From Candidatus Firestoneibacteriota bacterium (GTDB lineage Bacteria; Oederibacteriota; D2-FULL-39-29; JBBTED01): a stretch of 64,000 bases of DNA. Position numbers and translations under genes: made by a program. Below, in pieces: positions 10,226 to 63,918 of this stretch (positions are counted from its first letter, which is position 1; every line of letters starts with the position of its first letter). The notes beneath the pieces were generated by a model, which had not been told where the DNA came from, searched no databases, and saw only the letters and a program-made list of their open reading frames with translations. The stretch covers positions 15,309 through 79,308 of the forward strand of contig JBBTED010000067.1 of the NCBI GenBank assembly GCA_038042445.1, written 5' to 3'.

Positions 10226-10789
10226 ATGGATAATTTAAAAGATATTTATATTAGTTATTTCAATCAGATGAGAGATGGTGAATCAAATATTTTCAAATTT
10301 CTCACTACACTTTTTACTGCTATTGGAGGATTTTATATTGTTGTTAAAAATAATGTTGTTGAAAATAATTTAGATTGGTTATTGTTTTCAGCAATTGGAT
10401 CTACTATTGTACTTATATGGGGAATTCTTTATGTTTTATCAATAGGTTATACGCATAGATATTTGCAGGTAATAATGTGGTATTATGAAAATAAATTAAA
10501 ATTACCCAATTTCAAATCTTGGGATCCAAAAAAATTTAAAAAGTTGAAAGTATGCCAAAGCTTATTATTAGAACCTACTCCGGGAATTTATAAAATCCAT
10601 CTTATAGGATTTATTATGGGAATTATGTTAGTTTGGTATTGGTACGGATTTTTAAAAAATAACAACCATATTGGTTGTGTGATTATACTATTTCTTATTG
10701 TGTGGTTGCTTACTGCTTGTTTAAATTATTACTATATGAACAAACTAAAAAAAATAATTGAAAAAGGAATTAATAATGATAAAACTTAA
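10226..10789 (+). CDS. Hypothetical 4-TM membrane protein
   Basis: Four hydrophobic segments; overlaps next gene. Confidence 0.6.
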   Translation: MDNLKDIYISYFNQMRDGESNIFKFLTTLFTAIGGFYIVVKNNVVENNLDWLLFSAIGSTIVLIWGILYVLSIGYTHRYLQVIMWYYENKLKLPNFKSWDPKKFKKLKVCQSLLLEPTPGIYKIHLIGFIMGIMLVWYWYGFLKNNNHIGCVIILFLIVWLLTACLNYYYMNKLKKIIEKGINNDKT

Positions 10790-17541: not shown

Positions 17542-17553
17542 TTTATAGAATAT

Positions 17554-17641
17554 GTTATGCTGAATTCATTTCAGCATCTGTAGGGGTGGATTTATCCGAC
17601 CAGATATTGTAGTTGTTTTGTAGTTGCCGACTTTGGTTGGC
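17554..17641. repeat. Cluster of three palindromic repeats
   Basis: GTTATGCTGAATTCATTTCAGCATCT; GTAGGGGTGGATTTATCCGACC; GTAGTTGCCGACTTTGGTTGGC. Confidence 0.65.
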
Positions 17642-17657
17642 AAAGGAGGAAAAGAAA

Positions 17658-18215
17658 ATGGGAAAAGGTAATGTAGTCGCTCAATTTATTGAGCATAAGG
17701 TAGTTGCAAAGATTGGTTTGCTGATTGTTTTAGCAGTATTTGTTATAGTTGGTTGTGCATCAATGAAACCAATGTGGGTGGATAAAGGAAGTGCTGCGTT
17801 TGAGAAAGGCAAAGAAAAGGTGTTTTATGGTGTTGGCACAGCGAGTGCTGAAATTAAAGACAAAGCATTAAGAATAGAAACAGCGGATAACAGAGCAAGA
17901 GCGAGTTTACAGAAGATATTTGACACATATACAGCGTATTTAATGAAGGATTATCAGGGACAGGACGGAGTAGTTGTTGAAAGGGCTGTAAAAACATTTG
18001 CTGCTGGGAATTTATCTGGAGTTGAAATAACAGACCATTTTACTGAAAGCGATGGCACAATATATTCTTTAGCGAAACTTGATTTAGAGACATTCAAGCA
18101 GGCAATGGAAATGGCAAAGGAAGTTAGTACTATAGCAAAGGAACATTTGCAAAAGAAAGCAGATGTTATGTTCTCTGAATTAGAAAAAGAAGAAGAAAAA
18201 AGAGGAGCAAAGTAA
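17658..18215 (+). CDS. LPP20-like lipoprotein
   Basis: RBS AGGAGG; lipobox IVGC; KPMWV, FYGVG.A, ADNRARA. Confidence 0.75.
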   Translation: MGKGNVVAQFIEHKVVAKIGLLIVLAVFVIVGCASMKPMWVDKGSAAFEKGKEKVFYGVGTASAEIKDKALRIETADNRARASLQKIFDTYTAYLMKDYQGQDGVVVERAVKTFAAGNLSGVEITDHFTESDGTIYSLAKLDLETFKQAMEMAKEVSTIAKEHLQKKADVMFSELEKEEEKRGAK

Positions 18216-45764: not shown

Positions 45765-46331
45765 ATGATAAAAAAATCGATTAGACCATTTGGTATGGAT
45801 TTTGATTTGGAAAAAGGTATAATGAAAAATCCGGAGAAAATTATAGTTAGAAAAGCATCAGATATGCGTGGGTATTATACTGATGAAAAGGCATTGGAAA
45901 AAATTATCAAAAAGCAGGCGGATCCGATCCATTATGAGGTTTTTGAAAAACCTGTGCCTGAAGAAGATGGGCATTTATATTTTTGTATTAGTAAGCTTTG
46001 GCCTGGTTTAGTAGGGAATGAATATTTTATGACTAAAGGGCATTATCATAAAGTTGAAAAGACTGCTGAAATTTATCTTTGCCTTCGGGGAGAAGGATAT
46101 ATGTTAATGAAAACTGAAGAGGGAAAATGTGTTGCAGAACCTATGAAAAAAAACAAAATGATTTATGTTCCGCCTTATTGGGCACATCGTTCAGTAAATA
46201 TTGGAAATACGCCATTAATATCTTTATGTGTTTATCCTGCCCAAGCAGGACATAATTATAAAGATATAGAAAAAAAGGGATTTCCAAAAAGAATCTATAA
46301 TAGAAAAGGAAAAATTTGCATAGATGAATAA
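45765..46331 (+). CDS. Cupin-type glucose-6-phosphate isomerase family protein
   Basis: EYFMTKGHYH, EIY, YVPPYWAHRSVN, AGHNY. Confidence 0.9.
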   Translation: MIKKSIRPFGMDFDLEKGIMKNPEKIIVRKASDMRGYYTDEKALEKIIKKQADPIHYEVFEKPVPEEDGHLYFCISKLWPGLVGNEYFMTKGHYHKVEKTAEIYLCLRGEGYMLMKTEEGKCVAEPMKKNKMIYVPPYWAHRSVNIGNTPLISLCVYPAQAGHNYKDIEKKGFPKRIYNRKGKICIDE

Positions 46332-50851: not shown

Positions 50852-52066
50852 ATGGAACAGTGGAAGAAGAATTTATATGCATTATGGGGAATGCAGTTTG
50901 TTAGTGTGCTTGGTATGAGTATGATTTTGCCATTTATACCATTTTACATACGAACTTTAGGAATTACAAATTTAAATGATGTGTCTTTGTGGAGTGGTAT
51001 AACTATGGGTATAGGATTTATTTTTTCTGCGATTTTTTCACCTATATGGGGTGATTTTAGTGATAGATATGGCAGAAAAGTGATGATAATTCGTGCTGTT
51101 TTTGCAATAGCAATACTGAATTTATTGATGGCGTTTGCTCGCAATGTATATGATTTATTGATACTGAGGATATTGCAGGGATGTTTTGGTGGGTTTGTGG
51201 GTGCATCAGCAGCTTTAGTTTCAACATCTGTTCCACAACAAAAAATGGGTTATGCATTTGGTATACTTCAAACATCTATGATTGCAGGTAGTATTGGTGG
51301 CCCATTTATTGGTGGTGTCCTTGCAGATTTAGTTGGGTATCGCTTTGTATTTATTTTAACAGCAACTTTTATTTTTATAGGTGGATTGATTGTGACAATA
51401 ATGGTTAAAGAGGAAAAACATCTTTTAAGTAAAGAAAAAGGCGGAGGAATTATTGAAAATATAAAATCTGTTTTTGCATCTAAACAATTATTCGTAATAA
51501 TGTTAGTGCAATGTGTTATACAGATAGCTGTAATGGTTTTACAGCCAATACTACCTTTATTTATATCAAGTTTTCAAAAGGATGTTAAATATGTAGCAAC
51601 TATAACAGGTTTAGTATTTAGTTCAACTGCAATTACAACTTTATTTGCATCTTCTTTTTGGGGAAAAAAAGGAGATGTTTTAGGTCATAAAAAATCACTT
51701 TCTGTTTGTTTGCTTGGTTCTGCAATTTTAATGGCTCCACATTTTTTCATAAAAAATATCGGACAGCTTTTATTACTAAGAATGGGGCTTGGAGTTTTTG
51801 TTGCTGGAATTTCTCCATCAACTCAAACAATGATTACTGCATATATTCCAAGAAAAAAAAGAGGTGGAATGATGGGTATTGCTAATAGTTTTTCAATGAT
51901 AGGTATGGCAATGGGCCCTTTATTAGGAGGTTTTCTTGGAGCTAAATTTGGATTAAGAATTCCATTTCTTGTTACGAGCGCATTATTATTTATTACATTC
52001 TGGCTTGTCTATAAACTTGTTAAAGAACCAGTTAATACTGAGTTTATAGCTACAGGAATTGAATGA
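50852..52066 (+). CDS. MFS transporter, DHA1/MdtG-like
   Basis: WKKNL, PIWGDFSDRYGRK.M, RILQG.FGG, GPFIGG. Confidence 0.9.
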   Translation: MEQWKKNLYALWGMQFVSVLGMSMILPFIPFYIRTLGITNLNDVSLWSGITMGIGFIFSAIFSPIWGDFSDRYGRKVMIIRAVFAIAILNLLMAFARNVYDLLILRILQGCFGGFVGASAALVSTSVPQQKMGYAFGILQTSMIAGSIGGPFIGGVLADLVGYRFVFILTATFIFIGGLIVTIMVKEEKHLLSKEKGGGIIENIKSVFASKQLFVIMLVQCVIQIAVMVLQPILPLFISSFQKDVKYVATITGLVFSSTAITTLFASSFWGKKGDVLGHKKSLSVCLLGSAILMAPHFFIKNIGQLLLLRMGLGVFVAGISPSTQTMITAYIPRKKRGGMMGIANSFSMIGMAMGPLLGGFLGAKFGLRIPFLVTSALLFITFWLVYKLVKEPVNTEFIATGIE

Positions 52067-52101
52067 AAAAAGACAAAGCAATAAAAAAATTGGAGGTAAA
52101 A

Positions 52102-53694
52102 ATGTATAAAATTATTTTAATACTTGTGTGTTTTTATGTGATTGTTTGTTCACGAGAGGGATTTGCTCAGAAAAATGTTGATTCTGAAAAATGTTTTAGT
52201 TGTCATGCTGAAGTTAAGGAATTGTGGAGTTTAGGGAGACATAAACAACTTAATTGCACACAATGCCATAGTTTTTTAAATGAACATAATGAAGATTTTG
52301 AGAAAAAACCTGTTACAAATTTTGATCCTATGGTTTGTGGTAAATGCCACAAGAATCAATTTGAAACATTTTTTGAGGTTAATCTTAAAAAGCCAGCAAG
52401 AATTGAAAAATCTTTGTTGACAGAGCGTTCTCCAAATCCATTTTGGGACAAATTGATGATGGGGCATGGTTTTACAAAAGAGCACAATGTTCCAAGAAGT
52501 CATGCTTATATGCTTTTGGATCATTTGGTTGTAGATAGAGCTTATGGTGGCAGATTCCAGCCTAAAAACGGATGGGCATATACTATTACAAATACTCCTG
52601 TTAAAGTATGGGATGTTCTTGAAGATAAATATCCTGATACAAAAGAACACAAATCATTTATTCCTGAAAGTGCTGCTGCAGCAAATCCTGTATGTTTGCA
52701 ATGTAAAACTAATGATAGTATTTTGAAATGGAAATATATGGGAGAAAAAGATAAAAGTGCAAAATGGGATAGAACATCTAATCCTGTAGAATATGTAAAA
52801 GATTTGCAAAATATTATAAGTTGTGTTCATTGTCATGACCCTCATGCTACAAAACCAAGAATTGTCCGAGATGGTTTAATTCATGCACTAACCCGTGATG
52901 AAAAAGATACATTATGGCATAATGATACTAAACAAACTCCAATTAAAGTTGTTGATTTCAGGGATTTCAGAAAAATAGCGATTCTTGATAAATATGATGC
53001 AAAACTTATGTGTGGACAATGTCATGTGGAGTATAACTGTAATCCAGGAGTAAATCCTGTTACAGGCGAAAAGGTTGGGTTCAATGACATAAGGACAAAT
53101 CATTTTCCGCTTAAAAATGTTTTTCAGATTTATGAGCATTATAACAAGCTTGAGTTTCGTGATTTCAAACATAGTTTGACTGGTGGGTTGCTTTTTAAGG
53201 CTCAGCATCCTGAGACTGAAGTATTCTGGAATTCAAAGCATGATAAAGCCGGGGTAAGCTGTAATAATTGCCATATGCCAAAAATAAAAGACAAAGATGG
53301 AAAAATTTTCACATCACATTGGCAGACAAGCCCAAAAAATTACATAAAAGAAACGTGTTTGAAATGTCATCCGCAATGGACGAATGAGCAGGCAGTGTAT
53401 GCAATTGATTCAATTAAAAATCATATTAAAGGTAAGATGAGAAAGGCAGAATTTTGGCTGAGCAATTTAATTGATAAAATTGTAGAATCCAAAAAAACTG
53501 GAATAGATGAAAAAATTATTAAAGAAGCACAGGAACAACATCAAAAAGCCCATATTCTATGGGAATGGTGGACTGCAGAAAATTCAGATGGCTTCCACAA
53601 TCCAGACCAAGCAAGAGAGTCTTTAACTAAATCCGTAGAAGAATCCAAAAAAGGCATAGACCTATTAACAAAAGCTATATCAGAGAAAAAATAA
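52102..53694 (+). CDS. Octaheme cytochrome c nitrite reductase (ONR / extended NrfA family)
   Basis: 7 CxxCH + 1 CxxCK (CLQCK); CHVEYNC, KAQHPE, AENSDGFH; RBS GGAGG and signal peptide. Confidence 0.9.
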   Translation: MYKIILILVCFYVIVCSREGFAQKNVDSEKCFSCHAEVKELWSLGRHKQLNCTQCHSFLNEHNEDFEKKPVTNFDPMVCGKCHKNQFETFFEVNLKKPARIEKSLLTERSPNPFWDKLMMGHGFTKEHNVPRSHAYMLLDHLVVDRAYGGRFQPKNGWAYTITNTPVKVWDVLEDKYPDTKEHKSFIPESAAAANPVCLQCKTNDSILKWKYMGEKDKSAKWDRTSNPVEYVKDLQNIISCVHCHDPHATKPRIVRDGLIHALTRDEKDTLWHNDTKQTPIKVVDFRDFRKIAILDKYDAKLMCGQCHVEYNCNPGVNPVTGEKVGFNDIRTNHFPLKNVFQIYEHYNKLEFRDFKHSLTGGLLFKAQHPETEVFWNSKHDKAGVSCNNCHMPKIKDKDGKIFTSHWQTSPKNYIKETCLKCHPQWTNEQAVYAIDSIKNHIKGKMRKAEFWLSNLIDKIVESKKTGIDEKIIKEAQEQHQKAHILWEWWTAENSDGFHNPDQARESLTKSVEESKKGIDLLTKAISEKK

Positions 53695-53714
53695 TGAGGA
53701 GATAAATTCTACTT

Positions 53715-54257
53715 GTGTTAAAACTTTTACTAAAGATATTTTCGACGCCAAAAAATATAATTTTTATAAATCCAGATTACTATAATCAAATAGAAATTAT
53801 CACTATTGGAGAAAAGATACAAGACAAGGTAAAACGATTATTTCGAGGATCTCTTGCTATCAGACAGGTAGATGCTGGTTCTGATAATGCATGTGAACAG
53901 GAGCTTGTTGCTCTATCTAATGCTTTTTATGATATTGAGCGTTTTGGTATTCATTTCGTTGCTTCTCCAAAACATGCGGATATGCTTATGGTGACTGGTC
54001 CTGTAACCAGAAATATGGTTGAAGCAGTGAAAAGAGCATACGATGCTACACCTGATCCAAAAATTGTTGTTGTTGTTGGAGATGATGCGATAAACGGTGG
54101 AATATATAACGGATCCTACGCAACGCAAGATGGAGTGAATAATATTATACCAGTAGATTATCAAATTCTTGGAGATCCGCCATCTCCCAAAATAATTCTT
54201 TGTCACTTATTACATATATTAGAAATTCTTGATTGTAAATCGTTAGGATTAAAATAG
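53715..54257 (+). CDS. NuoB/HyfI-like small subunit with Cys-to-Asp substitutions
   Basis: QVDAGSDNACE, VASPKHAD, TGPVT, VGDDA, GDPP. Confidence 0.88.
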   Translation: MLKLLLKIFSTPKNIIFINPDYYNQIEIITIGEKIQDKVKRLFRGSLAIRQVDAGSDNACEQELVALSNAFYDIERFGIHFVASPKHADMLMVTGPVTRNMVEAVKRAYDATPDPKIVVVVGDDAINGGIYNGSYATQDGVNNIIPVDYQILGDPPSPKIILCHLLHILEILDCKSLGLK

Positions 54258-54258
54258 T

Positions 54259-56310
54259 ATGATAGATAGTGTTGCATCCTCAATAGGTTTTATTGTTCTT
54301 TTGTTTTTTTTCGGCGTTGGAGCTATGAGTGTTTTGATTTTTCGAAAAGATGATAAGCTTGCTAATATGTGGAGCAGTTTTTTCGCGATTGCCGGTTCCA
54401 TTTGGGGATTGTTTTTTGCGATATTAACATGGGCGAGTCCAAACACTATTTTTTTTACAGTTGATAGCTTTGCTTTTCCACTTCTTTCAATTTTTTTTTG
54501 TATTGATAAATTATCAATTTTTTTTATTTTTGTGATTTCTTTGATAGCTCTTTTTTGCTCTATCTATGGTATTGGATATGTAAAACATTTCTATGAAAAA
54601 TATAGTATTGGAGCTTTGGGATTTTTTTATAATCTATTCATTATAGGAATGCTTTTGGTTGTTACTGCTGCGAATGGATTATTTTTTCTTATTGCGTGGG
54701 AGATAATGTCCGTAGCGTCGTATTTTCTGGTAGTTTACGATAGAAATGACCGCAACAATGTTAATGCTGGATTTTTGTATTTAGTAATGACGCATATTGG
54801 AACAGTATTTATCATTTTTTCTTTTCTGCTTATATATAAATTCACAGGTTCTTTTGATTTTGAAACAATAAAATCCAGTGTTGTAGTCATTCCTTCGTCT
54901 ATAAAAAATATCATTTTTGTGATGCTAATAATTGGTTTTGGAACAAAAGCTGGTATTGTTCCATTTCATATTTGGCTTCCGAGTGCACATCCCGCTGCTC
55001 CTTCTCATGTTTCCGGGCTTATGTCAGGCGTAATGATAAAAACTGGTGTTTATATGATGATTAGATTTTTTCTTTATATTCTTCAGCCTGTTCCTGTGTG
55101 GTGGGGATTAGTGTTGCTTGTTATTGGGTCAATATCGTCTATCATAGGAGTTTTATACGCGCTTACGGAACATGACATTAAGCGGTTGCTTGCTTATCAT
55201 AGTATTGAAAATATAGGAATTATTCTTCTTGGTTTTGGAAGCGCACTTACTTTTTTATCTTTAAATATGCCTTCATTAGCACTTCTTGGTTTTGTAGCTG
55301 CGCTTTTTCATACATTGAACCACGCTACATTTAAGTCGTTGCTTTTTTTAAGCGCTGGTTCGGTTATAAATGAGACACATACAAGAAATATGGAAGAATA
55401 CGGAGGACTTATTAAATATATGCCAGAAACAGCTGCGTTTTTTTTAATTGGATCAATGGCAATATCTGCTTTACCACCGTTTAACGGATTTTTTAGTGAA
55501 TGGTTAACGTTTCAGTCGCTTTTTCAAGGAATAGCTGCATTAGATTTTTCTGCAAAATGGATTTTTATAGTGTCAGCAGGTGCATTAGCATTTACTGGTG
55601 GTTTGGCATTGGCATGTTTTGTGAAAGTGTTTGGTGTGACCTTTCTTGCCCGTCCAAGAAGTCAGAAAGTAGTCCATGCAAAAGAATCTTTGCTTTCTCT
55701 TCGTTTGGGAATGGGAGCTCTTGCAATTTTGTCACTTTTATTCGGAATATTTTCCGGGTCTATTACATCCGTTCTTGAGAAGGTGGGACACGATATTGGT
55801 GTTTTTCGTTACACCTCTTCTTTTTTATCAATATCTTCTAACCAACACATTGTTTCTGGTGGTAATTTTGCGTCTGTTTCTGCGCCTGCTATTGCTGTGT
55901 TTTTAATTGCAGTGTTTATTATTGTATTATTTGCAACAAAATATGTAGTGCATAAAAATCAAAAAATTCGTATGGGCGCTACTTGGGATTGTGGCACAGA
56001 TTTAACTCCACGAATGGAAATTACTGCTACCGGATTTGCACGTTCTATAATTACAATATTTAAGGGAGTTTTGAAACCAAGTATACAGCATGAAATTGAG
56101 TATAATGATGCCGAAAGCAGATATTTGCCAAAATCCAGAACAGTTACCTTAAACATCAACGATATATATCGAATATATTTGTATGAACCGTTGAATAAAA
56201 TTTTTACGATTTTATCTGAAAGAGCAAAGGGTATTCAAATTGGCAATATCAATGTCTATATTTTATACATTTTTATGGCGTTGTTTGTGGCATTAATTTT
56301 AATGATATAA
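54259..56310 (+). CDS. HyfB-like antiporter-type membrane subunit
   Basis: WEIMS, KAGIVPFHIWLP.AHPAAPS, KRLLAYHSIEN, WDCG. Confidence 0.9.
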   Translation: MIDSVASSIGFIVLLFFFGVGAMSVLIFRKDDKLANMWSSFFAIAGSIWGLFFAILTWASPNTIFFTVDSFAFPLLSIFFCIDKLSIFFIFVISLIALFCSIYGIGYVKHFYEKYSIGALGFFYNLFIIGMLLVVTAANGLFFLIAWEIMSVASYFLVVYDRNDRNNVNAGFLYLVMTHIGTVFIIFSFLLIYKFTGSFDFETIKSSVVVIPSSIKNIIFVMLIIGFGTKAGIVPFHIWLPSAHPAAPSHVSGLMSGVMIKTGVYMMIRFFLYILQPVPVWWGLVLLVIGSISSIIGVLYALTEHDIKRLLAYHSIENIGIILLGFGSALTFLSLNMPSLALLGFVAALFHTLNHATFKSLLFLSAGSVINETHTRNMEEYGGLIKYMPETAAFFLIGSMAISALPPFNGFFSEWLTFQSLFQGIAALDFSAKWIFIVSAGALAFTGGLALACFVKVFGVTFLARPRSQKVVHAKESLLSLRLGMGALAILSLLFGIFSGSITSVLEKVGHDIGVFRYTSSFLSISSNQHIVSGGNFASVSAPAIAVFLIAVFIIVLFATKYVVHKNQKIRMGATWDCGTDLTPRMEITATGFARSIITIFKGVLKPSIQHEIEYNDAESRYLPKSRTVTLNINDIYRIYLYEPLNKIFTILSERAKGIQIGNINVYILYIFMALFVALILMI

Positions 56311-56313
56311 TTT

Positions 56314-57243
56314 ATGACTACTATATTTTTTTGGATAATTCAATTAATTCTTGTGCCTGCATTGTCGCCACTTGGAATTGGGGTGATTAGGAAATTAAAA
56401 GCGAAGTTTCAAAATCGTCAAGGGGCAAATATTTTTCAGCCATACAAAGATTTATGGAAACTTTTTCATAAAGATGAGGTAATAAGCACTGATGCTTCAT
56501 GGATTTTCAGATACGCACCGTTTATTGTATTTGCTGTTACTATTGTGGTTGGGTTCAGTATTCCACTTCTTGTTTCTTTTATTTCAAACACAGTGACGAG
56601 TGATATATTGGTTGTTGTTTATATGTTGTCTATTGGCACGTTTTTTTTGGCGCTGGCAGGTATGGATACTGGAAGCGCTTTTGGCGGATTTGGATCCAGT
56701 CGTGAGATGACCATATTTGCACTTGCTGAAGGCGGACTTATTTTTTCGCTTTTGACTCTTGGTCTTATAATTGGCACAACAAATCTGTTTGAAATTTCTG
56801 GTACTATTTCTTCTTCATACAGTCAATCTTTTTTGCCTATTTTGCTGTCTTTTTCAGGATTTTTTATAGTTTTACTGTCTGAAACTGCGCATTTTCCTTT
56901 TGACAATCCAGCTACGCACTTGGAACTAACTATGATTCACGAAGCAATGATATTGGAATATTCCGGAAAAAGATTGGCGCTTATGGAATGGGCTTCGGCA
57001 AATAAACTTTTGATATTTATATCTTTGGGCGCAAATCTGTTTTTTCCGTGGGGGATAGCTCATAGCACGGATATAAAAGCAATACTTGTGAGTATAATTG
57101 TTTTTGCTGTAAAATTATTTATTTTTTATGGAGCAATTGCTGTTATTGAATCAAGTATTGCCAAGTTTAGGTTTTTTCGTTTGCCTGATTTGTTAATGAT
57201 TTCTTTTATTCTTAATGGAATTGCAATAGGTTTAATACTATGA
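56314..57243 (+). CDS. HyfC/NuoH-like membrane subunit
   Basis: FQPY.DL.KL, GSSRE, DNPATHLELTMIHEAMILEYSG. Confidence 0.92.
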   Translation: MTTIFFWIIQLILVPALSPLGIGVIRKLKAKFQNRQGANIFQPYKDLWKLFHKDEVISTDASWIFRYAPFIVFAVTIVVGFSIPLLVSFISNTVTSDILVVVYMLSIGTFFLALAGMDTGSAFGGFGSSREMTIFALAEGGLIFSLLTLGLIIGTTNLFEISGTISSSYSQSFLPILLSFSGFFIVLLSETAHFPFDNPATHLELTMIHEAMILEYSGKRLALMEWASANKLLIFISLGANLFFPWGIAHSTDIKAILVSIIVFAVKLFIFYGAIAVIESSIAKFRFFRLPDLLMISFILNGIAIGLIL

Positions 57244-57893
57244 GTATGAATATGGCATTTTCACAATTGTTATTGACGATATTTTTTCTCACAATTATTT
57301 TTTTGCATACTGCGAAAAAAAATTTTTGGGTTGCAGTTATGTATGGTATTCAGTCCTTAACAGTTGTTCTATTATTGGTCAGATTTTTTTTAGAAACGGG
57401 CAATGTTGCTTTGCTTCTGATTGCTTTGCTTACATTGATTATCAAAATTATCTTAGCTCCGGTATTTATTATTCGATTGATTAAAAAACACGAATTAAAA
57501 TTTTCTGCTAGTACTTATGTTAATACGCCGATTGCTTTAATTATGGTAGCTACGTTTACAGCTATAGCTCATTCGCATTTATTTGCTCCGCTTATCGGAA
57601 TTATTCCTGTTAATCAAAAACTGTTGGCTATTGCGCTTTCTTCAATATTCATCTCTTTGTTTTTAATAATTAATCGCAAAGGAGCTCTTTCTCAAATCAT
57701 CGGTATTTTATCATTAGAAAACAGTATTGTTGTGTTTGGTCTGTTTGCTGGTTTGGAGCAGTCTTTGGGTTTGCAAATTGGAATTATATTTGATATTTTT
57801 GTTTGGTTTATGATTGCAACTGTGTTTATATCAATGATTTATAAACATTTTGGATCACTTGATGTAACTGAAATGAAAGAGCTAAAGGATTAA
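57240..57893 (+). CDS. HyfE-like membrane subunit
   Basis: SQIIG.LSLENS, GIIFD; position in operon. Confidence 0.85.
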   Translation: MSMNMAFSQLLLTIFFLTIIFLHTAKKNFWVAVMYGIQSLTVVLLLVRFFLETGNVALLLIALLTLIIKIILAPVFIIRLIKKHELKFSASTYVNTPIALIMVATFTAIAHSHLFAPLIGIIPVNQKLLAIALSSIFISLFLIINRKGALSQIIGILSLENSIVVFGLFAGLEQSLGLQIGIIFDIFVWFMIATVFISMIYKHFGSLDVTEMKELKD

Positions 57894-57901
57894 AATTAAT
57901 T

Positions 57902-59344
57902 ATGGAACTAATCATTCTTTTTATATCTATTTTTATTGCTGTTGTAGTGTGTCTTATTGTCAGACACAGAGGCATTATTGAGTGTATTTCAGTTATTGCT
58001 TCGCTTATTGCGTTTGTTGCTTCAGTTATGATTGTTTTTAAAGTTGTTGCTTTAGGAATTTATGCTCCGTTTCAATTTTTTTCTGTGGATGCGCTTGGTG
58101 CCATTATAATGCTTCTAATTGCTCTTGTTGGATTTGCTGCTACAATGTATTCTGTTTGGTATCTTAGGGAAGAAACTGCCAATCAAGTTATTGGATTTAC
58201 ACGAGTTAAGCAATATTTTATTTTGTTGAATCTTTTTCTTGGAGCGATGTTTCTTGCAGTTGTGTCAAGTAATCCTATTTTTACATGGATTTCTATTGAA
58301 GCCACAACACTTTCAACAGCTTTTCTTATCAGTTTTTACAATAAGCCAGCAGCTATGGAGGCGGCTTGGAAATATTTGATTATAAATTCAATTGGTTTGC
58401 TGTTAGGGTTTTTTGGGACATTGCTATATTTTACATCATTACAAGCAACTGGAGGAGGAGGTTTGGCGACTTGGAATAGTTTATTGTCAAACGCTGCGCA
58501 TCTTAATCCTTCGATTGCCAAAATAGCATTTATTTTTATTTTGATTGGTTATGGCACAAAAGTTGGTCTTGTTCCTATGCATACATGGCTTCCTGATGCG
58601 CATAGTAAAGCTCCTGCGCCTATTAGCGCATTACTTTCAGGAGTGCTTTTAAATGTTGCGTTTATCGCGATGTTACGTTTCAAAGTAATCACTGATGCAT
58701 CTGTTGGATCTGGTTTTTCACAGAAACTATTGATTGCTTTTGGTTTAATATCAATTATTGTTGCTTCTTTGATTATCTTTACTCAAAAAAATTACAAGCG
58801 ATTACTTGCGTATTCAAGTATTGAAAATATGGGAATCGTAACACTTGGTTTTGGTTTTGGTGGGTTAGGTGTTTTTGCTGCCATTCTCCATATAATTTAT
58901 CATTCCCTTATCAAATCCGCGCTTTTTTTCTCTACAGGCAATATGTTGCTCAAGTATAATTCTGCCAAAATTAAAGATGTAAAAGGCGCGATAAATGTTA
59001 TTCCTATAACAAGCATACTATTTCTAACAGGTTTTTTTGCAATTACAGGTACGCCACCATTTGGAATATTTCTTACCAAAATATTCATTTTGTCAGCTGG
59101 GATACAAACGCATCTTGTAATAACTATTATAGCGATATTTTTTATGGCTATTCTTTTTATAGGGTTTTTTAAACATGTTGTTGCAATGATTTTTGGAGAA
59201 CAGTCTGCTGATATTAAAACTGGAGAAGCAAGTATGTGGCTTATTGTTCCACAGTTTGCACTTGTAGCCATAGCATTTTATTTGAGTTTTCATATTCCAT
59301 CGTTTATTCATACTCTAATAACTGTTGCAGTATCACATTATTAA
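57902..59344 (+). CDS. HyfF-like antiporter-type membrane subunit
   Basis: IEATTL, EAAWKY, GTKVGL.PMHTWLPDAHS, KRLLAYSSIE. Confidence 0.92.
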   Translation: MELIILFISIFIAVVVCLIVRHRGIIECISVIASLIAFVASVMIVFKVVALGIYAPFQFFSVDALGAIIMLLIALVGFAATMYSVWYLREETANQVIGFTRVKQYFILLNLFLGAMFLAVVSSNPIFTWISIEATTLSTAFLISFYNKPAAMEAAWKYLIINSIGLLLGFFGTLLYFTSLQATGGGGLATWNSLLSNAAHLNPSIAKIAFIFILIGYGTKVGLVPMHTWLPDAHSKAPAPISALLSGVLLNVAFIAMLRFKVITDASVGSGFSQKLLIAFGLISIIVASLIIFTQKNYKRLLAYSSIENMGIVTLGFGFGGLGVFAAILHIIYHSLIKSALFFSTGNMLLKYNSAKIKDVKGAINVIPITSILFLTGFFAITGTPPFGIFLTKIFILSAGIQTHLVITIIAIFFMAILFIGFFKHVVAMIFGEQSADIKTGEASMWLIVPQFALVAIAFYLSFHIPSFIHTLITVAVSHY

Positions 59345-59345
59345 T

Positions 59346-60914
59346 ATGACAATGAAAAACATAGAGAATTATATTCCTCAACATATAAATGCAGAGATAT
59401 GTGGTAATACAGCTGTTTTTGAAATTTCTTCTTCCAAGATAATTGAATTTGCTCGTCATTTGCGTGATGATAAAAATCTCTCGTTAAAATTAATAACAGC
59501 GACTGATGAAAGAGAAGAATATGGATGTTTTAAAATATGGTATGTTTTTGGAGTTAAGAAAGAGAATGTTTTTATTATTCCCTATATTAAATTAAAAAAT
59601 ATGGAAGAATTTCCTTCTCTTACTTCTGTATTTCACGAAGCATGGAATTATGAGAGAAAAATACAAACCTTTTTTGGGCTCAAACCTATTGGTCATCCTG
59701 ATTCAAGAATGATTATTCTTCATGAAAATTGGCCAATTGATGTTTTTCCTTTGAGGAAAGATTTCAATTGGCAAACAAAACCGAAGTTGGCGCATAATGT
59801 CTATAATTTTCAAAATGTTGAGGGCGAAGGCATTTATGAAATTCCAGTTGGTCCGATTCATGCCGGTATTATTGAACCCGGACATTTTAGATTTACAGTT
59901 GCAGGAGAAGAAATTATGTTTTTAGAATCGAGACTTGGATTTACGCATAAAGGTAGTGAGAAATTGTTTGAAATACTATCTCTTGCTGAAAAAGTTCGTC
60001 TTTCGGAAAAAATTTCCGGAGATAGTTCGTTTAGTCATTCACTAACTTTTTGTCAGACAGTGGAACAATTAAGTGGTATCACAGTGCAAAGTAGAGTGCG
60101 TTATTTACGGGTTATATATGCAGAATTAGAACGATTAGCAAATCATTTTGGCGATATCGGTGCTATTATGCTTGATGCAGGTTTTAATTTTGGCGGTAGT
60201 AATGGTGCGAGGTTACGGGAAATGATTATGCAACTCAATGAGCGATTGACAGGAAGCAGGTTTTTGCGTGGAGTAAATGCAATAGGTGGAGTTACTAAAG
60301 ACATTAATATCAAAGAAATGAATGTATTATCTAGTAATCTCACAAAAATATATGAAGACTTTTTAGAAGTTATTGCAGTGGCGGAAAATAGTACATCTCT
60401 AATTAATCGTTTAAAAGATACTGGTGTTTTGACGTATGAAATTGCAAAAGATCATGGTGTGATGGGAGTTGCAGGTAGAGCTGTTGGAATACCAAGTGAT
60501 GCGCGTATTGATTATCCATACGCAGCTTATGATGAGTTTTCTATAGGTGAGGTTGCAATTGAACAAAGCGGAGATGTTTATGCGAGGTTTCACGTTCGTA
60601 TCAAAGAAGTGGATGCATCAATTAAAGTGATCCAACAAGCATTGCAGAAAATGCCGGAAGAGGGCGTAATTTCTCCTGTAGATATTGTGCTTAAAAAAAA
60701 TGCGTTAGCTGTGAGTATTGTTGAAGGATGGAGAGGGGAGATTGTATATTTTGTGACAACGGATTCGCGTGGAATTATTAGCCGAGTAGCTGTACGTGAT
60801 CCATCGTTTATAAATTGGACAGCGCTTGGGTATGCCGGTTTCGGTAATGTAGTTCCAGATTTCCCATTGATCAATAAAAGTTTTAATCTATCCTATTCAG
60901 GAAACGATCTCTAA
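59346..60914 (+). CDS. NuoC/D-fused large subunit lacking NiFe ligands (Ehr-type)
   Basis: VGPIHAGIIEPGHFRF; ISGDS and SFNLSYSGNDL in place of the two CxxC motifs. Confidence 0.92.
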   Translation: MTMKNIENYIPQHINAEICGNTAVFEISSSKIIEFARHLRDDKNLSLKLITATDEREEYGCFKIWYVFGVKKENVFIIPYIKLKNMEEFPSLTSVFHEAWNYERKIQTFFGLKPIGHPDSRMIILHENWPIDVFPLRKDFNWQTKPKLAHNVYNFQNVEGEGIYEIPVGPIHAGIIEPGHFRFTVAGEEIMFLESRLGFTHKGSEKLFEILSLAEKVRLSEKISGDSSFSHSLTFCQTVEQLSGITVQSRVRYLRVIYAELERLANHFGDIGAIMLDAGFNFGGSNGARLREMIMQLNERLTGSRFLRGVNAIGGVTKDINIKEMNVLSSNLTKIYEDFLEVIAVAENSTSLINRLKDTGVLTYEIAKDHGVMGVAGRAVGIPSDARIDYPYAAYDEFSIGEVAIEQSGDVYARFHVRIKEVDASIKVIQQALQKMPEEGVISPVDIVLKKNALAVSIVEGWRGEIVYFVTTDSRGIISRVAVRDPSFINWTALGYAGFGNVVPDFPLINKSFNLSYSGNDL

Positions 60915-60922
60915 TTTAATAA

Positions 60923-60967
60923 AAATCCCCCTTAGTCCCCCTTTAATAAAGGGGTTAGGGGAGATTT
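60923..60967. terminator. Palindromic repeat between convergent operons (probable bidirectional terminator)
   Basis: AAATCCCCCTTAGTCCCCCTTTAATAAAGGGGTTAGGGGAGATTT. Confidence 0.65.
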
Positions 60968-60969
60968 TA

Positions 60970-63159
60970 TTATAACATCGATGGCATAGTCAGAGCGGGA
61001 TGATTTACTTTTTGTAAGAATGCCAGTAATTCTTCTGGGGTTGTTGCTGTAGTTTCATCAGCAATTTTTTCAAGAAAATCAGATGCCCCGAGTTCTTCAG
61101 CTCTTTTCTTAAATCTTTCGGCTAAAGCTTCTTTGAGTTCTTTTGGCATCCATACAATTCTTAAAAATCCGCCATCTGCAGAAATAAATTTCTTGCTTGT
61201 AAGATACATTCTGCCTACACCGATAAATCCTGGGGTTTGCAAGCCACCGCCAACTGTTCCAGCTAATGTGCTAAATGTCATTCCTGCTGGAGTCATACCG
61301 CCGTATCCACGTTGCACAACCATTACGCCATTAGCTTCAGGCACAACACCAACAATACATTCAAAACATCCGCAGGATGTCATTGGAGATTCAATCATTG
61401 AATAAGCAGAGAAATGTTCCAATTTGCCATGTGATTTTGCGGCTATAAGTTCATTTACGCCTTTCCATTCACCAGTTTTTGAATTTATAGTTTCACCTTT
61501 TGCTACTGGTTGGTTTGCTCCTGCTGGATTTATTTCATAAGCAGCTTTTCCATCAAGCCAGCTGTATGCTCCGCATAATCCTAATCTTTCTGGTGTAATT
61601 ATACACAGATGGTCAGGTGCATAGGATTGGCATAAAGCACAGGAATAGAAAATATCAATATCTTCGTCTTTCATTCCGCCTATTCGTTCGTCTCTTTCTT
61701 TATATGCAGCTTGTGCTTCAGGCATCATTTTATCGACATCTTCTTGTTTAGTATAAAGAGTTACCTGAACTTTATCAATTATTGCAGGAAATTCGCTCAA
61801 TAATTTTGCATGTAATATTACACCTAAATGTTTGAATTTGAATCCGGCTTTTCTTGTATCTTTGCTGATTCTTACCCACATAAGATCTCTTTGTCCTATG
61901 TGCATTACACCAAGCGCTTCACTTAAAAAAGTATGGAATCTTCTTTCTAAAATAGATTCAAATTCTTTTTGCATTTTTCTGCCGGCAACTTCAACAAAAA
62001 TTCCAAACGGTAAAACTCCTGCATCAGCGATTTCGTCAATTTCAGGACCTATAACTTCTATTTTGCCATCCTGAACTTCATCCATATCGCGCATTTTTAA
62101 ATATTCATAAGCTTTTGAATATTTACCACCAAATTCTACACCGATATGTTCTTTTCTTACTCTTTCACCTTCAAATGCAGGTCCATAAGATACAGGAATT
62201 GGAAGTTTTTCAACTTTGATTTTTAAACCGCGGACTTCTATACCTTTTGCTACTATATCAGAAAGCGGTATCTTAGATACAACGTGTTCATAAGTGCAAA
62301 CACCTGTAGGCAATATTTGAGGTATATCTGTATCTGCAATTACAGGAAATCCAAAGTTTATTGCGCCTGCAGCAGTAGCGTATTTTTCATCATCAACTGT
62401 GCCAAGTGCTAATACAAATGCATTAACACGTTTTTTATTGTACAATAATATTTCTCTTGCTTGTTGTAAATTTCCTGGTTGTAATCCGCCAAATGTCATT
62501 GCTGATCTTGCTGCAAAATTTAGTGCATAGATGCTGGCACTTGTGTCTTTACCAAAAGGAACAATGTAAGTATCCCATCCAAGCTGAATTCCTTCTTCAT
62601 CAAGCTGTTCTGCTATACTTTTTCCATTAGTATTGCTTGCTATAAATACAAGTATTTTTTTCTCCTGTAACTCACGAATTAATTTTACAGCTTCTTCATT
62701 TGTAGGACAGGCTCCAACACAAGCAGCAAATCCAGGCATTCTTCCATCAACTAATTTTATTCCTTGTTCACGCAATATTGAATCATCTGCGAAACCCAAC
62801 CATATTCCAGAAACAGGGTTTGGGCCAATAAGGTATTTTAAAGATTCAATTATTTCTTCAGCAACCAAAGTTGCAATTCCAGCGTCTAATGTAGGCCCTA
62901 AATAAGGCAACCATACAGATTCAGAAGGGAGGGGGGGCAATAATTTTTTTGCTCTATCAAGTGGATCCCATAAATCTTTTAAGTATTGAACTTTTAACCC
63001 GAAAAATGCCAGAATTATTGGCAAGTAATACGCAGTATTCGGGTATTCTACTTTGCAATTTTCACCTTTTTGAGCTATTGCTTCTTTTAATTTTTCTTCA
63101 GCTTCTCGGACATATTTATGTGCACCTCTTATAGCTGCTGTTGCAATTATTTTTGACAT
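60970..63159 (-). CDS. acsB: CO-methylating acetyl-CoA synthase
   Basis: PNTAYYLP, CALCQSYAPDHLC, LCGAYSW, MTSCGCFEC A-cluster ligands; RBS AAGGAG. Confidence 0.96.
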   Translation of the reverse strand: MSKIIATAAIRGAHKYVREAEEKLKEAIAQKGENCKVEYPNTAYYLPIILAFFGLKVQYLKDLWDPLDRAKKLLPPLPSESVWLPYLGPTLDAGIATLVAEEIIESLKYLIGPNPVSGIWLGFADDSILREQGIKLVDGRMPGFAACVGACPTNEEAVKLIRELQEKKILVFIASNTNGKSIAEQLDEEGIQLGWDTYIVPFGKDTSASIYALNFAARSAMTFGGLQPGNLQQAREILLYNKKRVNAFVLALGTVDDEKYATAAGAINFGFPVIADTDIPQILPTGVCTYEHVVSKIPLSDIVAKGIEVRGLKIKVEKLPIPVSYGPAFEGERVRKEHIGVEFGGKYSKAYEYLKMRDMDEVQDGKIEVIGPEIDEIADAGVLPFGIFVEVAGRKMQKEFESILERRFHTFLSEALGVMHIGQRDLMWVRISKDTRKAGFKFKHLGVILHAKLLSEFPAIIDKVQVTLYTKQEDVDKMMPEAQAAYKERDERIGGMKDEDIDIFYSCALCQSYAPDHLCIITPERLGLCGAYSWLDGKAAYEINPAGANQPVAKGETINSKTGEWKGVNELIAAKSHGKLEHFSAYSMIESPMTSCGCFECIVGVVPEANGVMVVQRGYGGMTPAGMTFSTLAGTVGGGLQTPGFIGVGRMYLTSKKFISADGGFLRIVWMPKELKEALAERFKKRAEELGASDFLEKIADETTATTPEELLAFLQKVNHPALTMPSML

Positions 63160-63171
63160 AGATTACTCTCC

Positions 63172-63918
63172 TTATGTTATACTTGTCACATTAATTACAG
63201 TTGTTTTTCTTCTGCAATCCGGACAAATGTCTAATATTTCGTTAGTTAAATTAACTTTTTGCTTAACAATATTTAATTGCATTAAAGATGAAAACTTATT
63301 ATCACACATTTTGCATTTTACTAATTTAACACGTGTTTTCCATTTATCAAATATTACGTCATCTCCATTTTTCTGCATTACAATAGCATTTGTAGGGCAA
63401 ACATTTACACAGGCGCCGCATCCAATACAGGTTTCAGATTGTTTGCAAAACGGTGTTGATGCTTCGCGATGAACTCCACGATTTGAAAATCCTATTGCAG
63501 ATACATTTATTAATTCACTGCATACTCTCACGCATAGTCCACATAAAATACATTTTTCTTCCTGAATTGTAAATCTTGGTTTTTCTATTCCATATTCTTT
63601 TGCAAGAGCAATGATTTCAGGTGAAGATGAGGCGCGGGCTAATATAAATTCAATTACTAATCGTCTTGCACTTATTACTTTTTCAGATTTTGTTTCAATT
63701 ATCATATTGTTTTCAACGTGTCTACTACAGGAAGTAACTAAATCTGACCAGCTTTTCTTTTTTAATTCTACAATGCATACTCTACAGGCACTATAAGGGA
63801 CAATTGCAGGATGATGGCACAGAGTAGGAATTTTAATCCCTACTTTGTGCGCAGCATTTAATATGCTTGTGCCTTCTTCAACTTCAACTTCTTTATTGTC
63901 TATAGTTAATTTAATCAT
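63172..63918 (-). CDS. 2Fe-2S + 2x4Fe-4S protein (NuoG/HydA N-terminal-like)
   Basis: IPTLC...CRVC...SC; CILCGLCVRVC; CIGCGACVNVCP; C-terminal CxxC..CxxC. Confidence 0.9.
   Translation of the reverse strand: MIKLTIDNKEVEVEEGTSILNAAHKVGIKIPTLCHHPAIVPYSACRVCIVELKKKSWSDLVTSCSRHVENNMIIETKSEKVISARRLVIEFILARASSSPEIIALAKEYGIEKPRFTIQEEKCILCGLCVRVCSELINVSAIGFSNRGVHREASTPFCKQSETCIGCGACVNVCPTNAIVMQKNGDDVIFDKWKTRVKLVKCKMCDNKFSSLMQLNIVKQKVNLTNEILDICPDCRRKTTVINVTSIT

What the first reader, a model, noticed from the sequence alone, without database searches (positions are those of the whole stretch)
53715..54257. Hydrogenase/complex I small subunit with three of four Fe-S cysteines replaced by aspartate
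Seen: GSDNAC (GAT at 53883, Cys kept at 53892), VGDDA (GAT at 54084) and GDPP (GAT at 54174). Established: NuoB/HyfI/EchC proteins ligate their 4Fe-4S cluster through GSCxxC, GxCA and GCPP. Each TGY-to-GAT change needs two substitutions, all three give Asp, and the rest of the protein is well conserved, so decay is unlikely. Inference: the site was re-purposed to a Cys/Asp3 site (an Asp-ligated cluster or a mononuclear/divalent cation), so the complex may be non-redox or run new chemistry.
Basis: partly seen in the sequence, partly recalled or inferred. Interest (0 to 1): 0.85.

Follow-up and report, generated by a model that had tools for sequence, protein, structure and literature searches.

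The report
Iron-sulfur-free small subunit of Ehr complex
This gene encodes the small subunit of a six-protein membrane machine related to respiratory complex I and hydrogenases that has lost all its usual metal sites, with aspartates where the iron-sulfur cysteines were, so it probably moves ions without moving electrons; the type is already known, mostly from ultra-small bacteria.

Summary
ORF 53715-54257 is a NuoB/HycG/MbhJ-family protein. The four [4Fe-4S] ligand positions read Asp57, Cys60, Asp124 and Asp154.

It is the first gene of a six-gene Ehr-type (energy-converting hydrogenase-related) operon. The large subunit has lost all four NiFe cysteines, and the operon has no ferredoxin-like subunit.

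The pattern is neither error nor decay:
- Contigs from two studies show no difference at the codons.
- All 120 closest homologues (70-100% identity) lack the cluster cysteines.
- dN/dS is about 0.04-0.14.
- The retained Cys is dispensable in relatives (Ala, Val, Thr, Glu).

Across 196 Cys-poor homologues, 192 keep at least two acidic residues at the four positions and none has a basic one.

Best reading: a redox-cofactor-free ion-translocating complex whose former cluster pocket is kept acidic, either as a stand-in for the cluster's charge or as a cation site. Neither has been tested.

What is new here is the host. It is a 2.8-Mb non-CPR groundwater bacterium that also has a canonical nuo operon. 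The operon is closest to CPR copies and lies 20 bp downstream of an octaheme cytochrome gene.

This scan found the same feature earlier on other DNA.

The parts
53715..54257 (+). EhrS: NuoB/HycG/MbhJ-family small subunit, 180 aa, without a [4Fe-4S] ligand set
   Evidence: Pfam PF01058 E 3.6e-23. Alignments to 6cfw_J and 7z0s_G. AF2 model pLDDT 89.9 superposes on MbhJ at rmsd 2.0 A over 137 columns.
53883..53885 (+). GAT, Asp57, at cluster ligand position 1
   Evidence: Asp in 119 of the 120 closest homologues
53892..53894 (+). TGT, Cys60, the one retained ligand position (position 2)
   Evidence: Cys in 112, Ala in 6, Val in 1 of 120
54084..54086 (+). GAT, Asp124, at cluster ligand position 3; it follows Asp123
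   Evidence: Asp in 119 of 120. Asp123 is present in 192 of 196 Cys-poor homologues.
54174..54176 (+). GAT, Asp154, at cluster ligand position 4
   Evidence: Asp in 88 and Asn in 32 of 120
53696..53701 (+). GAGGAG, a ribosome-binding-site-like hexamer 13 nt before the GTG start
   Evidence: read directly. The N-terminus matches those of homologues.
54259..56310 (+). EhrA: HyfB/NuoL-like antiporter-type subunit
   Evidence: PF00361 E 1.4e-61. NCBIfam hydrogenase 4 subunit B 655 bits, just under the 667 cut-off. Conserved membrane Glu/Lys residues kept in alignments to HycC and MbhH.
56314..57243 (+). EhrB: HyfC/NuoH-like subunit
   Evidence: PF00146 E 2.1e-43
57240..57893 (+). EhrC: HyfE-like membrane subunit
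   Evidence: NCBIfam hydrogenase 4 membrane subunit E 3.8e-16, below cut-off; PF00420 E 6.4e-5
57902..59344 (+). EhrD: HyfF/NuoN-like antiporter-type subunit
   Evidence: PF00361 E 2e-50; NCBIfam hydrogenase 4 subunit F E 1.5e-126, below cut-off
59325..60914 (+). EhrL: fused NuoC-NuoD/HycE-like large subunit. The four NiFe Cys positions read Ser231, Ser234, Ser523, Gly526 (codons 60015-60017, 60024-60026, 60891-60893, 60900-60902). The exact start codon is uncertain.
   Evidence: PF00346 and PF00329; alignment to HycE 7z0s_E, E 2.5e-65; column count

Best explanation
ORF 53715-54257 is the small subunit (EhrS) of an Ehr-type complex. Ehr complexes descend from group-4 membrane-bound [NiFe] hydrogenases and are cousins of respiratory complex I. 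This complex has none of its family's usual redox cofactor sites: the NiFe site is gone from the large subunit, there is no NuoI/HycF-type ferredoxin subunit, and the last [4Fe-4S] cluster has been lost from the small subunit. The fold of the small subunit is kept. The former cluster pocket is filled with carboxylates (Asp57, Asp123/124, Asp154). The complex most likely translocates ions (H+ and/or Na+) through its two antiporter-like subunits and its NuoH-like subunit without electron transfer, much as an Mrp-type antiporter does. In this view the EhrS/EhrL cap is kept as a structural or gating module. My preferred reading of the aspartates is that they stand in for the net negative charge of the lost cluster in a pocket built to hold an anion. 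Shown: the cofactor ligands are absent, the pattern is clade-wide, and selection is purifying. Inferred: ion translocation without redox chemistry, and the role of the aspartates.
For: (1) Ligands. Three of the four cluster Cys are Asp. In all 75 large subunits I aligned (the window plus 74 loci), none has Cys at any of the four NiFe positions (HycE alignment). The six ORFs are contiguous and leave no room for a further gene. A CxxCxxCxxxC[PAGS] motif scan found a ferredoxin-type ORF near the operon in only 2 of 24 Cys-poor loci, both on the opposite strand.
(2) Selection. dN is 0.17-0.44 while synonymous sites are saturated, giving dN/dS 0.04-0.14 in the 6 of 12 pairs where dS could be computed. 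Asp codons switch between GAT and GAC among relatives. The window's end branch is 0.11 against a median of 0.26.
(3) Fold. The AF2 model has pLDDT 89.9, and 94-95 in the blocks that hold the former ligands. Foldseek places it on MbhJ at rmsd 2.0 A and on Aquifex NuoB at rmsd 1.7 A.
(4) Membrane arm. EhrA keeps the Glu/Lys positions conserved in MbhH, in alignments to MbhH and HycC. The names of those positions are recalled.
(5) Hosts. Four CPR genomes of 1.0-1.4 Mb each hold this as their only PF01058 protein.
(6) Neighbours in relatives. Among 11 loci, F-type ATP synthase genes lie directly upstream in 2 (L001, L003) and a Na+/H+ exchanger (PF00999) lies within the flank in 4 (L001, L013, L014, L017). 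No formate dehydrogenase or NuoE/F was seen (53 of 90 flank ORFs were scanned).
(7) Acidity. 192 of 196 Cys-poor homologues keep two or more Asp/Glu at the four positions, and 0 of 23 distinct patterns has Lys, Arg or His (many rows are close relatives).
Against: No experiment exists on any Ehr complex of this kind. Papers up to 2025 call the function of Ehr unknown (passages seen). The ATP synthase and exchanger neighbours appear in a minority of relatives and not in this window. Here the operon follows an MFS transporter gene and an octaheme cytochrome c gene on the same strand, 20 bp away, which could point to a link with redox metabolism in this host. Many Ehr relatives that also lack NiFe still keep all four cluster Cys (56 of 80 loci), so the cap may have a role I do not understand. 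Why a pure antiporter would keep a roughly 700-residue cytoplasmic cap under strong selection is unexplained. I could not read model coordinates, so I did not measure whether the carboxylates converge. Carboxylates as a charge stand-in and carboxylates as a cation site are not told apart by any result here.
Confidence: 0.6

Rival explanations
1. One reading: the Asp-rich pocket (Asp57, Asp123/124, Asp154, with or without Cys60) binds a mononuclear or divalent cation such as Mg2+, Ca2+, Mn2+, Fe2+ or Na+. The cation is either a structural replacement for the cluster or a sensing or coupling site. This is compatible with a non-redox ion translocator.
For: Two or three carboxylates are kept in 192 of 196 Cys-poor homologues and a basic residue is never present. 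Asp123 rises from 47% in the four-Cys homologues to 98% in the Cys-poor ones. Replacement by acidic residues recurs in lineages that the trees place apart: DVDD/DDDS/DVDS, ECED, SAES and DAAD. Three like charges packed together usually need a counter-ion; this is inference.
Against: The ligand set is not fixed. Position 1 reads Asp, Thr, Ser or Asn; position 2 Cys, Thr, Ala, Glu, Val or Pro; position 3 Asp, Gly or Glu; position 4 Asp, Asn or Ser. Four of 196 sequences have one acidic residue or none. Most Cys-poor homologues gain Lys or Arg at position 132 (64% and 16%), which could neutralise charge without a metal; the window has Asn there. No geometry was measured.
Confidence: 0.22
2. The complex is still redox-coupled. 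It docks a separately encoded redox module, for example a formate dehydrogenase as proposed for other Ehr complexes, or in this host something connected with the adjacent octaheme cytochrome. The cap then serves as the docking and coupling site.
For: An FDH-Ehr complex has been hypothesised for Margulisbacteria and Saganbacteria (passages). Geobacter Ehr subunits are more abundant with formate (passages). In the window the cytochrome gene ends 20 bp before EhrS on the same strand.
Against: The cap has no cofactor ligands that could carry electrons. The Gly in EhrL aligns with the position I recall as the quinone-binding Tyr87 of Thermus Nqo4. The cytochrome has no homologue next to the operon in any of the 23 related loci listed. 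From its eight haem motifs, it should lie outside the cytoplasm, while the cap is cytoplasmic by homology (inference). CPR hosts of 1.0-1.4 Mb have no second PF01058 protein.
Confidence: 0.12
3. A non-canonical Fe-S cluster is ligated by one Cys and three Asp.
For: A single Asp ligand to a [4Fe-4S] cluster is known in some ferredoxins (recalled). Cys60 is kept in 112 of the 120 closest homologues.
Against: Cys60 is Ala or Val in 7 of those 120 and Thr, Ala, Glu, Val or Pro in 71 of 196 Cys-poor homologues. I know of no cluster with three carboxylate ligands (recalled). The operon has no electron entry or exit site.
Confidence: 0.03
4. Sequencing error, or a decaying pseudogene.
For: None found.
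Against: Contigs from two studies show no difference at the codons. The pattern is clade-wide. dN/dS is 0.04-0.14. All six ORFs are intact. The fold model is confident.
Confidence: 0.01

Closest known systems
Ehr (energy-converting / Ech-hydrogenase-related) complexes, in particular the CPR-specific clade reported by Jaffe et al. 2020 (PMC7304191; passages seen). The name goes back to Coppi 2005 and Marreiros et al. 2013, neither of which I could read (recalled).
   Same: A group-4-hydrogenase-like operon with two antiporter-like subunits, a NuoH-like subunit, a HyfE-like subunit, a large subunit and a small subunit. The large subunit lacks the NiFe cysteines. The closest relatives (64-76% identity over the small subunit, 56-69% over the large) are labelled Magasanik-, Kaiser-, Falkow- and Levybacteria.
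   Different: The host is not a CPR bacterium. It has a 2.8-Mb genome with a canonical nuo operon, a group-3 [NiFe] hydrogenase and acetyl-CoA synthase. Gene order is S-A-B-C-D-L, whereas the methanogen relatives have A-B-C-D-L-S. The passages I saw discuss only the large subunit's cysteines, not the small subunit's Cys-to-Asp changes.
Ehr-type loci with an intact small-subunit cluster (L018-L080: Rhizobiales, other Alphaproteobacteria, Nitrospirota, Acidobacteriota, Rokubacteria and others)
   Same: Their large subunits share the same Cys-free motifs at the NiFe positions, and they also lack a neighbouring ferredoxin-type gene (1 of 57 loci had one).
   Different: They keep all four cluster Cys in the small subunit (56 of 80 loci). 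The window belongs to the further reduced form. The NiFe site therefore appears to have been lost before the cluster (inference).
HycG and HyfI of E. coli formate hydrogenlyase (7z0s_G) and MbhJ of the Pyrococcus furiosus membrane-bound hydrogenase (6cfw_J)
   Same: Same fold and family: E 6.1e-27 and 3.2e-29; rmsd 2.0 A to MbhJ.
   Different: Those proteins hold a [4Fe-4S] cluster that feeds a NiFe site. Here three of the four ligands are Asp and there is no NiFe site.
NuoB/PSST (NDUFS7), the cluster N2 subunit of respiratory complex I
   Same: Homologous domain (E about 1e-22 to many solved chains). The host's own NuoB on contig C116 has the Cys motifs.
   Different: The match is below the NCBIfam NuoB cut-off (105.4 against 116 bits). 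There are no N2 ligands, and the partner large subunit lacks the quinone-site Tyr (residue identity recalled).
Mrp-type multisubunit cation/proton antiporters (7qru, 6z16)
   Same: This is a likeness in how it may work, not family membership. EhrA matches MrpA and MrpD chains (E 2.9e-42 and 7.5e-33), and the complex has no redox cofactor.
   Different: Mrp has no NuoB/NuoD/NuoH-like cap. The MrpB, C, E, F and G subunits were not sought here.

Membership tests
NuoB/HycG/MbhJ small-subunit family (Pfam PF01058) | Domain match above Pfam's gathering score | tested here: met
   82.1 bits against a cut-off of 27, E 3.6e-23
NuoB/HycG/MbhJ small-subunit family (Pfam PF01058) | Four conserved Cys that ligate the proximal/N2 [4Fe-4S] cluster | tested here: not met
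   The four positions read Asp, Cys, Asp, Asp
NuoB/HycG/MbhJ small-subunit family (Pfam PF01058) | Flavodoxin-like fold of the small subunit | tested here: met
   AF2 pLDDT 89.9. Foldseek: 6cfw_J TM 0.89 normalised to the target, rmsd 2.0 A; 7q5y_F rmsd 1.7 A.
NuoB of complex I (NCBIfam NF005012 / TIGR01957) | Score above the curated cut-off | tested here: not met
   105.4 against 116 bits, and 97.3 against 142.7 bits
Ehr complex | Group-4-type large subunit without the two CxxC NiFe motifs | tested here: met
   Ser, Ser, Ser, Gly at the four positions
Ehr complex | Operon with antiporter-like, NuoH-like and HyfE-like membrane subunits plus a large and a small subunit (EhrA-D, L, S, as listed for Geobacter GSU0739-45 in PMC7894505; passages) | tested here: met
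   Six contiguous genes, 53715-60914. The order S-A-B-C-D-L differs from the L-S order in the methanogen relatives.
Ehr complex | Sequence kinship with a named Ehr complex (Geobacter sulfurreducens) | not tested
   No Geobacter sequence was retrieved. The third homologue search returned a methanogen clade instead.
CPR Ehr clade (Jaffe 2020) | Nearest relatives are CPR sequences that form a clade apart from other Ehr | tested here: met
   Sister to L001 (Magasanikiibacteriota MAG), SH-aLRT 89, inside a group of Cys-poor, mostly CPR-labelled rows. This is a small-subunit tree; theirs was of the large subunit.
Group 4 [NiFe] hydrogenase (Hyc/Hyf/Mbh/Ech) | NiFe-ligating Cys pairs in the large subunit | tested here: not met
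Group 4 [NiFe] hydrogenase (Hyc/Hyf/Mbh/Ech) | HycF/NuoI-type 2x[4Fe-4S] subunit in the operon | tested here: not met
   No such ORF among the six genes. The only motif hit in the window region is 63172-63918 on the minus strand, beside the acetyl-CoA synthase gene.
Respiratory complex I | Quinone-site Tyr of NuoD (Tyr87 of Thermus Nqo4; residue recalled) | tested here: not met
   Gly in EhrL aligns with that Tyr in 2fug_4
Mrp antiporter | MrpA/MrpD-like subunits with conserved membrane Glu/Lys | tested here: met
   Alignments of EhrA to MbhH and HycC, and matches to 7qru_A and 7qru_D. EhrD was judged only by eye.
Mrp antiporter | The small subunits MrpB, C, E, F and G | not tested
   Not sought. 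The operon holds a NuoH-like and a HyfE-like subunit instead, so it is not filed as Mrp.

The most novel reading that the evidence does not exclude
The acidic pocket is a working part rather than filler. A fixed negative charge, or a bound cation or proton, at the old N2 position sets or gates the conformational coupling between the cap and the NuoH-like ion channel. This complex would then run the complex-I coupling machinery from ion binding or membrane potential instead of electron transfer. It would also be a natural test of how charge at the N2/quinone site drives the membrane arm. Recurrence of the acidic replacement in several lineages would then be convergent adaptation.
Probability: 0.15. 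Interest if true: 0.75.

Novelty: new member of a known kind. Interest (0 to 1): 0.38.

Why it matters
In the passages I read, papers from 2019 to 2025 still call the function of Ehr complexes unknown. A version with no ligand set for any of its family's redox cofactors, yet under strong purifying selection, rules out the electron-transfer functions usually proposed for it. It points instead to ion handling. The recurrent replacement of cluster ligands by acidic residues suggests a concrete experiment on the role of charge at the N2 position in complex-I-type coupling. This copy adds one fact: the reduced form so far linked to CPR bacteria also sits in a larger, respiring, non-CPR genome beside ordinary complex I. 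It is therefore not merely a remnant tolerated in tiny genomes. As a finding it is not new in kind. The complex type is in print, and this scan has reported the same Cys-to-Asp pattern several times on other genomes.

Tried and rejected
- Expression: no RNA holder was listed for 52000-61000, so nothing can be said about expression.
- Primary papers: Marreiros et al. 2013 is not held and I did not look up Coppi 2005. I therefore cannot exclude that the small subunit's Cys loss is described there.
- Literature searches: six full-text searches and the passages read gave no statement about Cys-to-Asp in EhrS. One search found no occurrence of the term. In the supplements of PMC6349859 only 12 of 29 files were searched.
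- Geobacter Ehr: the third homologue search was meant to reach Geobacter Ehr. It returned only a methanogen clade (DTDN in 96 of 120).
- Host taxonomy: the Rho marker search did not resolve the phylum. The best named hits were Poribacteria, Firestone-, Desantisbacteria and Omnitrophica at 73-74% identity.
- dS was saturated in 6 of 12 pairs, so those pairs gave no dN/dS.
- Independent losses: the AU test of a single origin for all 29 sampled Cys-poor rows gave p 0.043 (log-likelihood difference 56), but the group was named after I had seen the tree. Independent losses are favoured, not proven. I left the long-branch rows P0238 and P0172 out of that set.
- Cytochrome link: the idea that the upstream octaheme cytochrome belongs to the system was set aside, because no homologue of 100 or more aligned residues lies near the operon in the 23 related loci listed.
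- Basic residues: I looked for basic residues that compensate the new charges. Only position 132 (Lys or Arg in most Cys-poor sequences) stood out, and the window has Asn there.
- Model coordinates are not exposed, so I measured no distances in the pocket.
- The complex predictor was not used, because a small-large subunit pair would pass on likeness to solved structures.
- The near-place look-up of earlier findings gave nothing.

Full report
**Observation.** The ORF at 53715-54257 (plus strand, GTG start, 180 aa) carries these codons:
- GAT at 53883 (Asp57)
- TGT at 53892 (Cys60)
- GAT at 54084 (Asp124)
- GAT at 54174 (Asp154)

Pfam places the protein in PF01058, the 20-kDa subunit family of complex I and hydrogenases (E 3.6e-23). 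HMMER alignments to the solved chains MbhJ (6cfw_J) and HycG (7z0s_G) put the three Asp opposite three of their Cys and Cys60 opposite the fourth. That those Cys hold the proximal/N2-type cluster is established knowledge I recalled.

**The operon.** The gene opens a tightly packed six-gene operon, 53715-60914:
- small subunit
- HyfB/NuoL-like subunit
- HyfC/NuoH-like subunit
- HyfE-like subunit
- HyfF/NuoN-like subunit
- fused NuoC-NuoD/HycE-like large subunit

Aligned to E. coli HycE (7z0s_E, E 2.5e-65), the four NiFe cysteines of the large subunit read Ser, Ser, Ser, Gly. There is no HycF/NuoI-type ferredoxin gene among the six. The next gene lies on the other strand and encodes acetyl-CoA synthase. 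This is the composition of an Ehr complex, as listed for Geobacter GSU0739-45 (passages of PMC7894505). Ehr is described as lacking the NiFe ligands in several papers (passages).

**Not an error, not decay.**
- Contigs of runs X1 and X3 (one study; X1 may be the source) cover 53500-54500 without a difference.
- A contig from a second study (X4) covers 53883-54129 without a difference. No listed strain variant of X4 touches the four codons; 7 differences were not shown.
- Among the 120 best homologues (70-100% identity), Asp stands at ligand positions 1 and 3 in 119 each. Position 4 is Asp in 88 and Asn in 32. The retained Cys is present in 112, Ala in 6 and Val in 1.
- Against 12 related loci, dN is 0.17-0.44 while synonymous sites are saturated. 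dN/dS is 0.04-0.14 in the 6 pairs where it could be computed. The Asp codons alternate between GAT and GAC.
- An AF2 model built on 46 sequences has pLDDT 89.9. It superposes on MbhJ at 2.0 A over 137 columns.

**The wider family.**
- In a scan of species-representative genomes, 80 loci were kept. Of these, 56 small subunits have all four Cys, one has three, and 23 have at most one. The search pattern favoured the Asp type, so these shares are not frequencies.
- All 75 large subunits I could align, including those paired with four-Cys small subunits, lack Cys at all four NiFe positions. The NiFe site therefore seems to have been lost first, and the cluster later in some lineages (inference).
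- In a FastTree tree of 200 rows, the window lies in an all-Cys-poor group of 38 rows (SH-like support 93). In an IQ-TREE mixture-model tree of 71 rows, it lies in an all-Cys-poor group of 23 rows (SH-aLRT 81).
- Within that group are subgroups reading DCDD/DCDN, TCDD, SEGD, TEGN/TEGE and, in methanogens, DTDN (96 of 120 hits).
- Other Cys-poor lineages (DVDD/DDDS/DVDS, SAES, ECED, DAAD) fall among four-Cys sequences.
- Forcing all 29 sampled Cys-poor rows into one clade costs 56 log-likelihood units (AU p 0.043). This is weak, because the group was named after the tree was seen.
- Across 196 Cys-poor sequences, many of them close kin, 192 keep at least two Asp/Glu at the four positions. No pattern has Lys, Arg or His.
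- So the constant feature is an acidic pocket, not a Cys/Asp3 ligand set.

**Host and context.**
- The window lies in a 2.81-Mb, 90%-complete genome of about 32% G+C, from groundwater metagenomes.
- The genome also holds a canonical nuo operon with an intact NuoB and a group-3 [NiFe] hydrogenase.
- A Rho marker search gave only 73-79% identical hits, the named ones from Poribacteria, Firestone-, Desantisbacteria and Omnitrophica. The host is therefore a non-CPR bacterium of unresolved phylum.
- The Ehr operon is nevertheless closest to CPR-labelled copies: 76% identity (small subunit) to a Magasanikiibacteriota MAG.
- Among the 98 other genomes of the host's own phylum, the best match is 51% identical. 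The five best all have four Cys.
- Among 401 genomes of the CPR phylum, 14 match and 11 of those at 53% identity or more. This points to lateral transfer between CPR and this lineage; the direction is unknown.
- Four CPR hosts of 1.0-1.4 Mb have this as their only PF01058 protein.
- In 11 related loci, ATP synthase genes lie directly upstream in 2 and a Na+/H+ exchanger lies nearby in 4. No formate dehydrogenase or NuoE/F was seen (53 of 90 flank ORFs were scanned).
- In the window itself the upstream neighbours are an MFS transporter gene and an octaheme NrfA-like cytochrome c gene that ends 20 bp before EhrS. That pairing is not seen in relatives.

**Mechanism.**
- Best supported (0.6): a redox-cofactor-free ion translocator. 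The antiporter-like subunit EhrA keeps the membrane Glu/Lys positions conserved in MbhH. The cap is retained under selection, and the old cluster pocket is filled by carboxylates.
- I favour the view that the carboxylates replace the net negative charge of a cysteinyl-ligated cluster in a pocket evolved to hold an anion. This is inference; the charge of the cluster is recalled.
- A bound cation is the main alternative (0.22) and is compatible with the same overall function.
- Coupling to a separate redox partner (0.12), an Asp-ligated cluster (0.03) and error or decay (0.01) are less likely.
- No tool here could tell charge mimic from cation site.

**Comparison and novelty.**
- The complex is an Ehr complex of the reduced form linked to CPR bacteria. 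Jaffe et al. 2020 reported a monophyletic CPR Ehr clade without the metal-binding cysteines, judged from the large subunit (passages).
- I found no printed statement on the small subunit's Cys-to-Asp changes in six searches. The two founding papers were not readable here.
- This scan has already reported the same pattern on other genomes, with the same reading. I reached my reading before those look-ups, and they agree with it.
- What this window adds is a non-CPR host that also has ordinary complex I, and the cytochrome neighbour.

Verdict: a real, selected and interesting feature, but a new member of a known kind.

Noticed in passing
window 52063-53694 (+): A 543-aa cytochrome c with eight haem-binding motifs, one of them CXXCK. 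It matches Cytochrom_C552/NrfA over residues 201-540 (E 1.1e-56) and has an extra N-terminal multihaem part, so it resembles an octaheme nitrite-reductase-type enzyme. Its start overlaps the stop of the upstream MFS gene (50852-52066) by 4 bp, and it ends 20 bp before EhrS. This looks like a possible single transcription unit with the Ehr operon. The pairing is not seen in relatives.
   Followed up: partly
window 60970-63159 (-) and 63172-63918 (-): An acetyl-CoA synthase (ACS/CODH beta subunit domains, E 1.8e-121) next to a 2Fe-2S plus 4Fe-4S protein. The host probably runs the Wood-Ljungdahl pathway.
   Followed up: no
G000 contig C116, about 12924-18041: The host's canonical nuo operon runs NuoA, B, C, D and then directly H, I, J, K. 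No NuoE/F/G genes lie between D and H, which is the 11-subunit type whose electron donor is unknown.
   Followed up: no
loci L018-L080 (large-subunit genes beside four-Cys small subunits): Every one of these large subunits (Rhizobiales, Nitrospirota, Acidobacteriota, Rokubacteria and others) lacks Cys at all four NiFe positions, while the partner small subunit keeps its cluster ligands. They are Ehr-type complexes with a lone cluster and no nearby ferredoxin gene. What that cluster does is unclear.
   Followed up: partly
window 10758-17541 (+): Three large consecutive genes (907, 989 and 365 aa) with FlgD-Ig, TIG, caspase (Peptidase_C14) and DUF4384 domains. Possibly a secreted or surface caspase-like system.
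   Followed up: no
L005 17238-18677: In the Kaiserbacteria locus a second HyfF-like gene (59% identical to the window's EhrD) follows the large-subunit gene, giving a seven-gene variant of the operon.
   Followed up: no
window 45765-46331 (+): A cupin-type glucose-6-phosphate isomerase (PF06560, E 1.9e-33), a type I recall as mostly archaeal, inside a sugar-kinase/aldolase gene cluster.
   Followed up: no
L072 10567-10908 (+): Just downstream of the Methanosarcina EhrS, an ORF made of many near-identical copies of a short Lys/Ile/Gln/Thr-rich unit. This is a tandem repeat at the DNA level.
   Followed up: no
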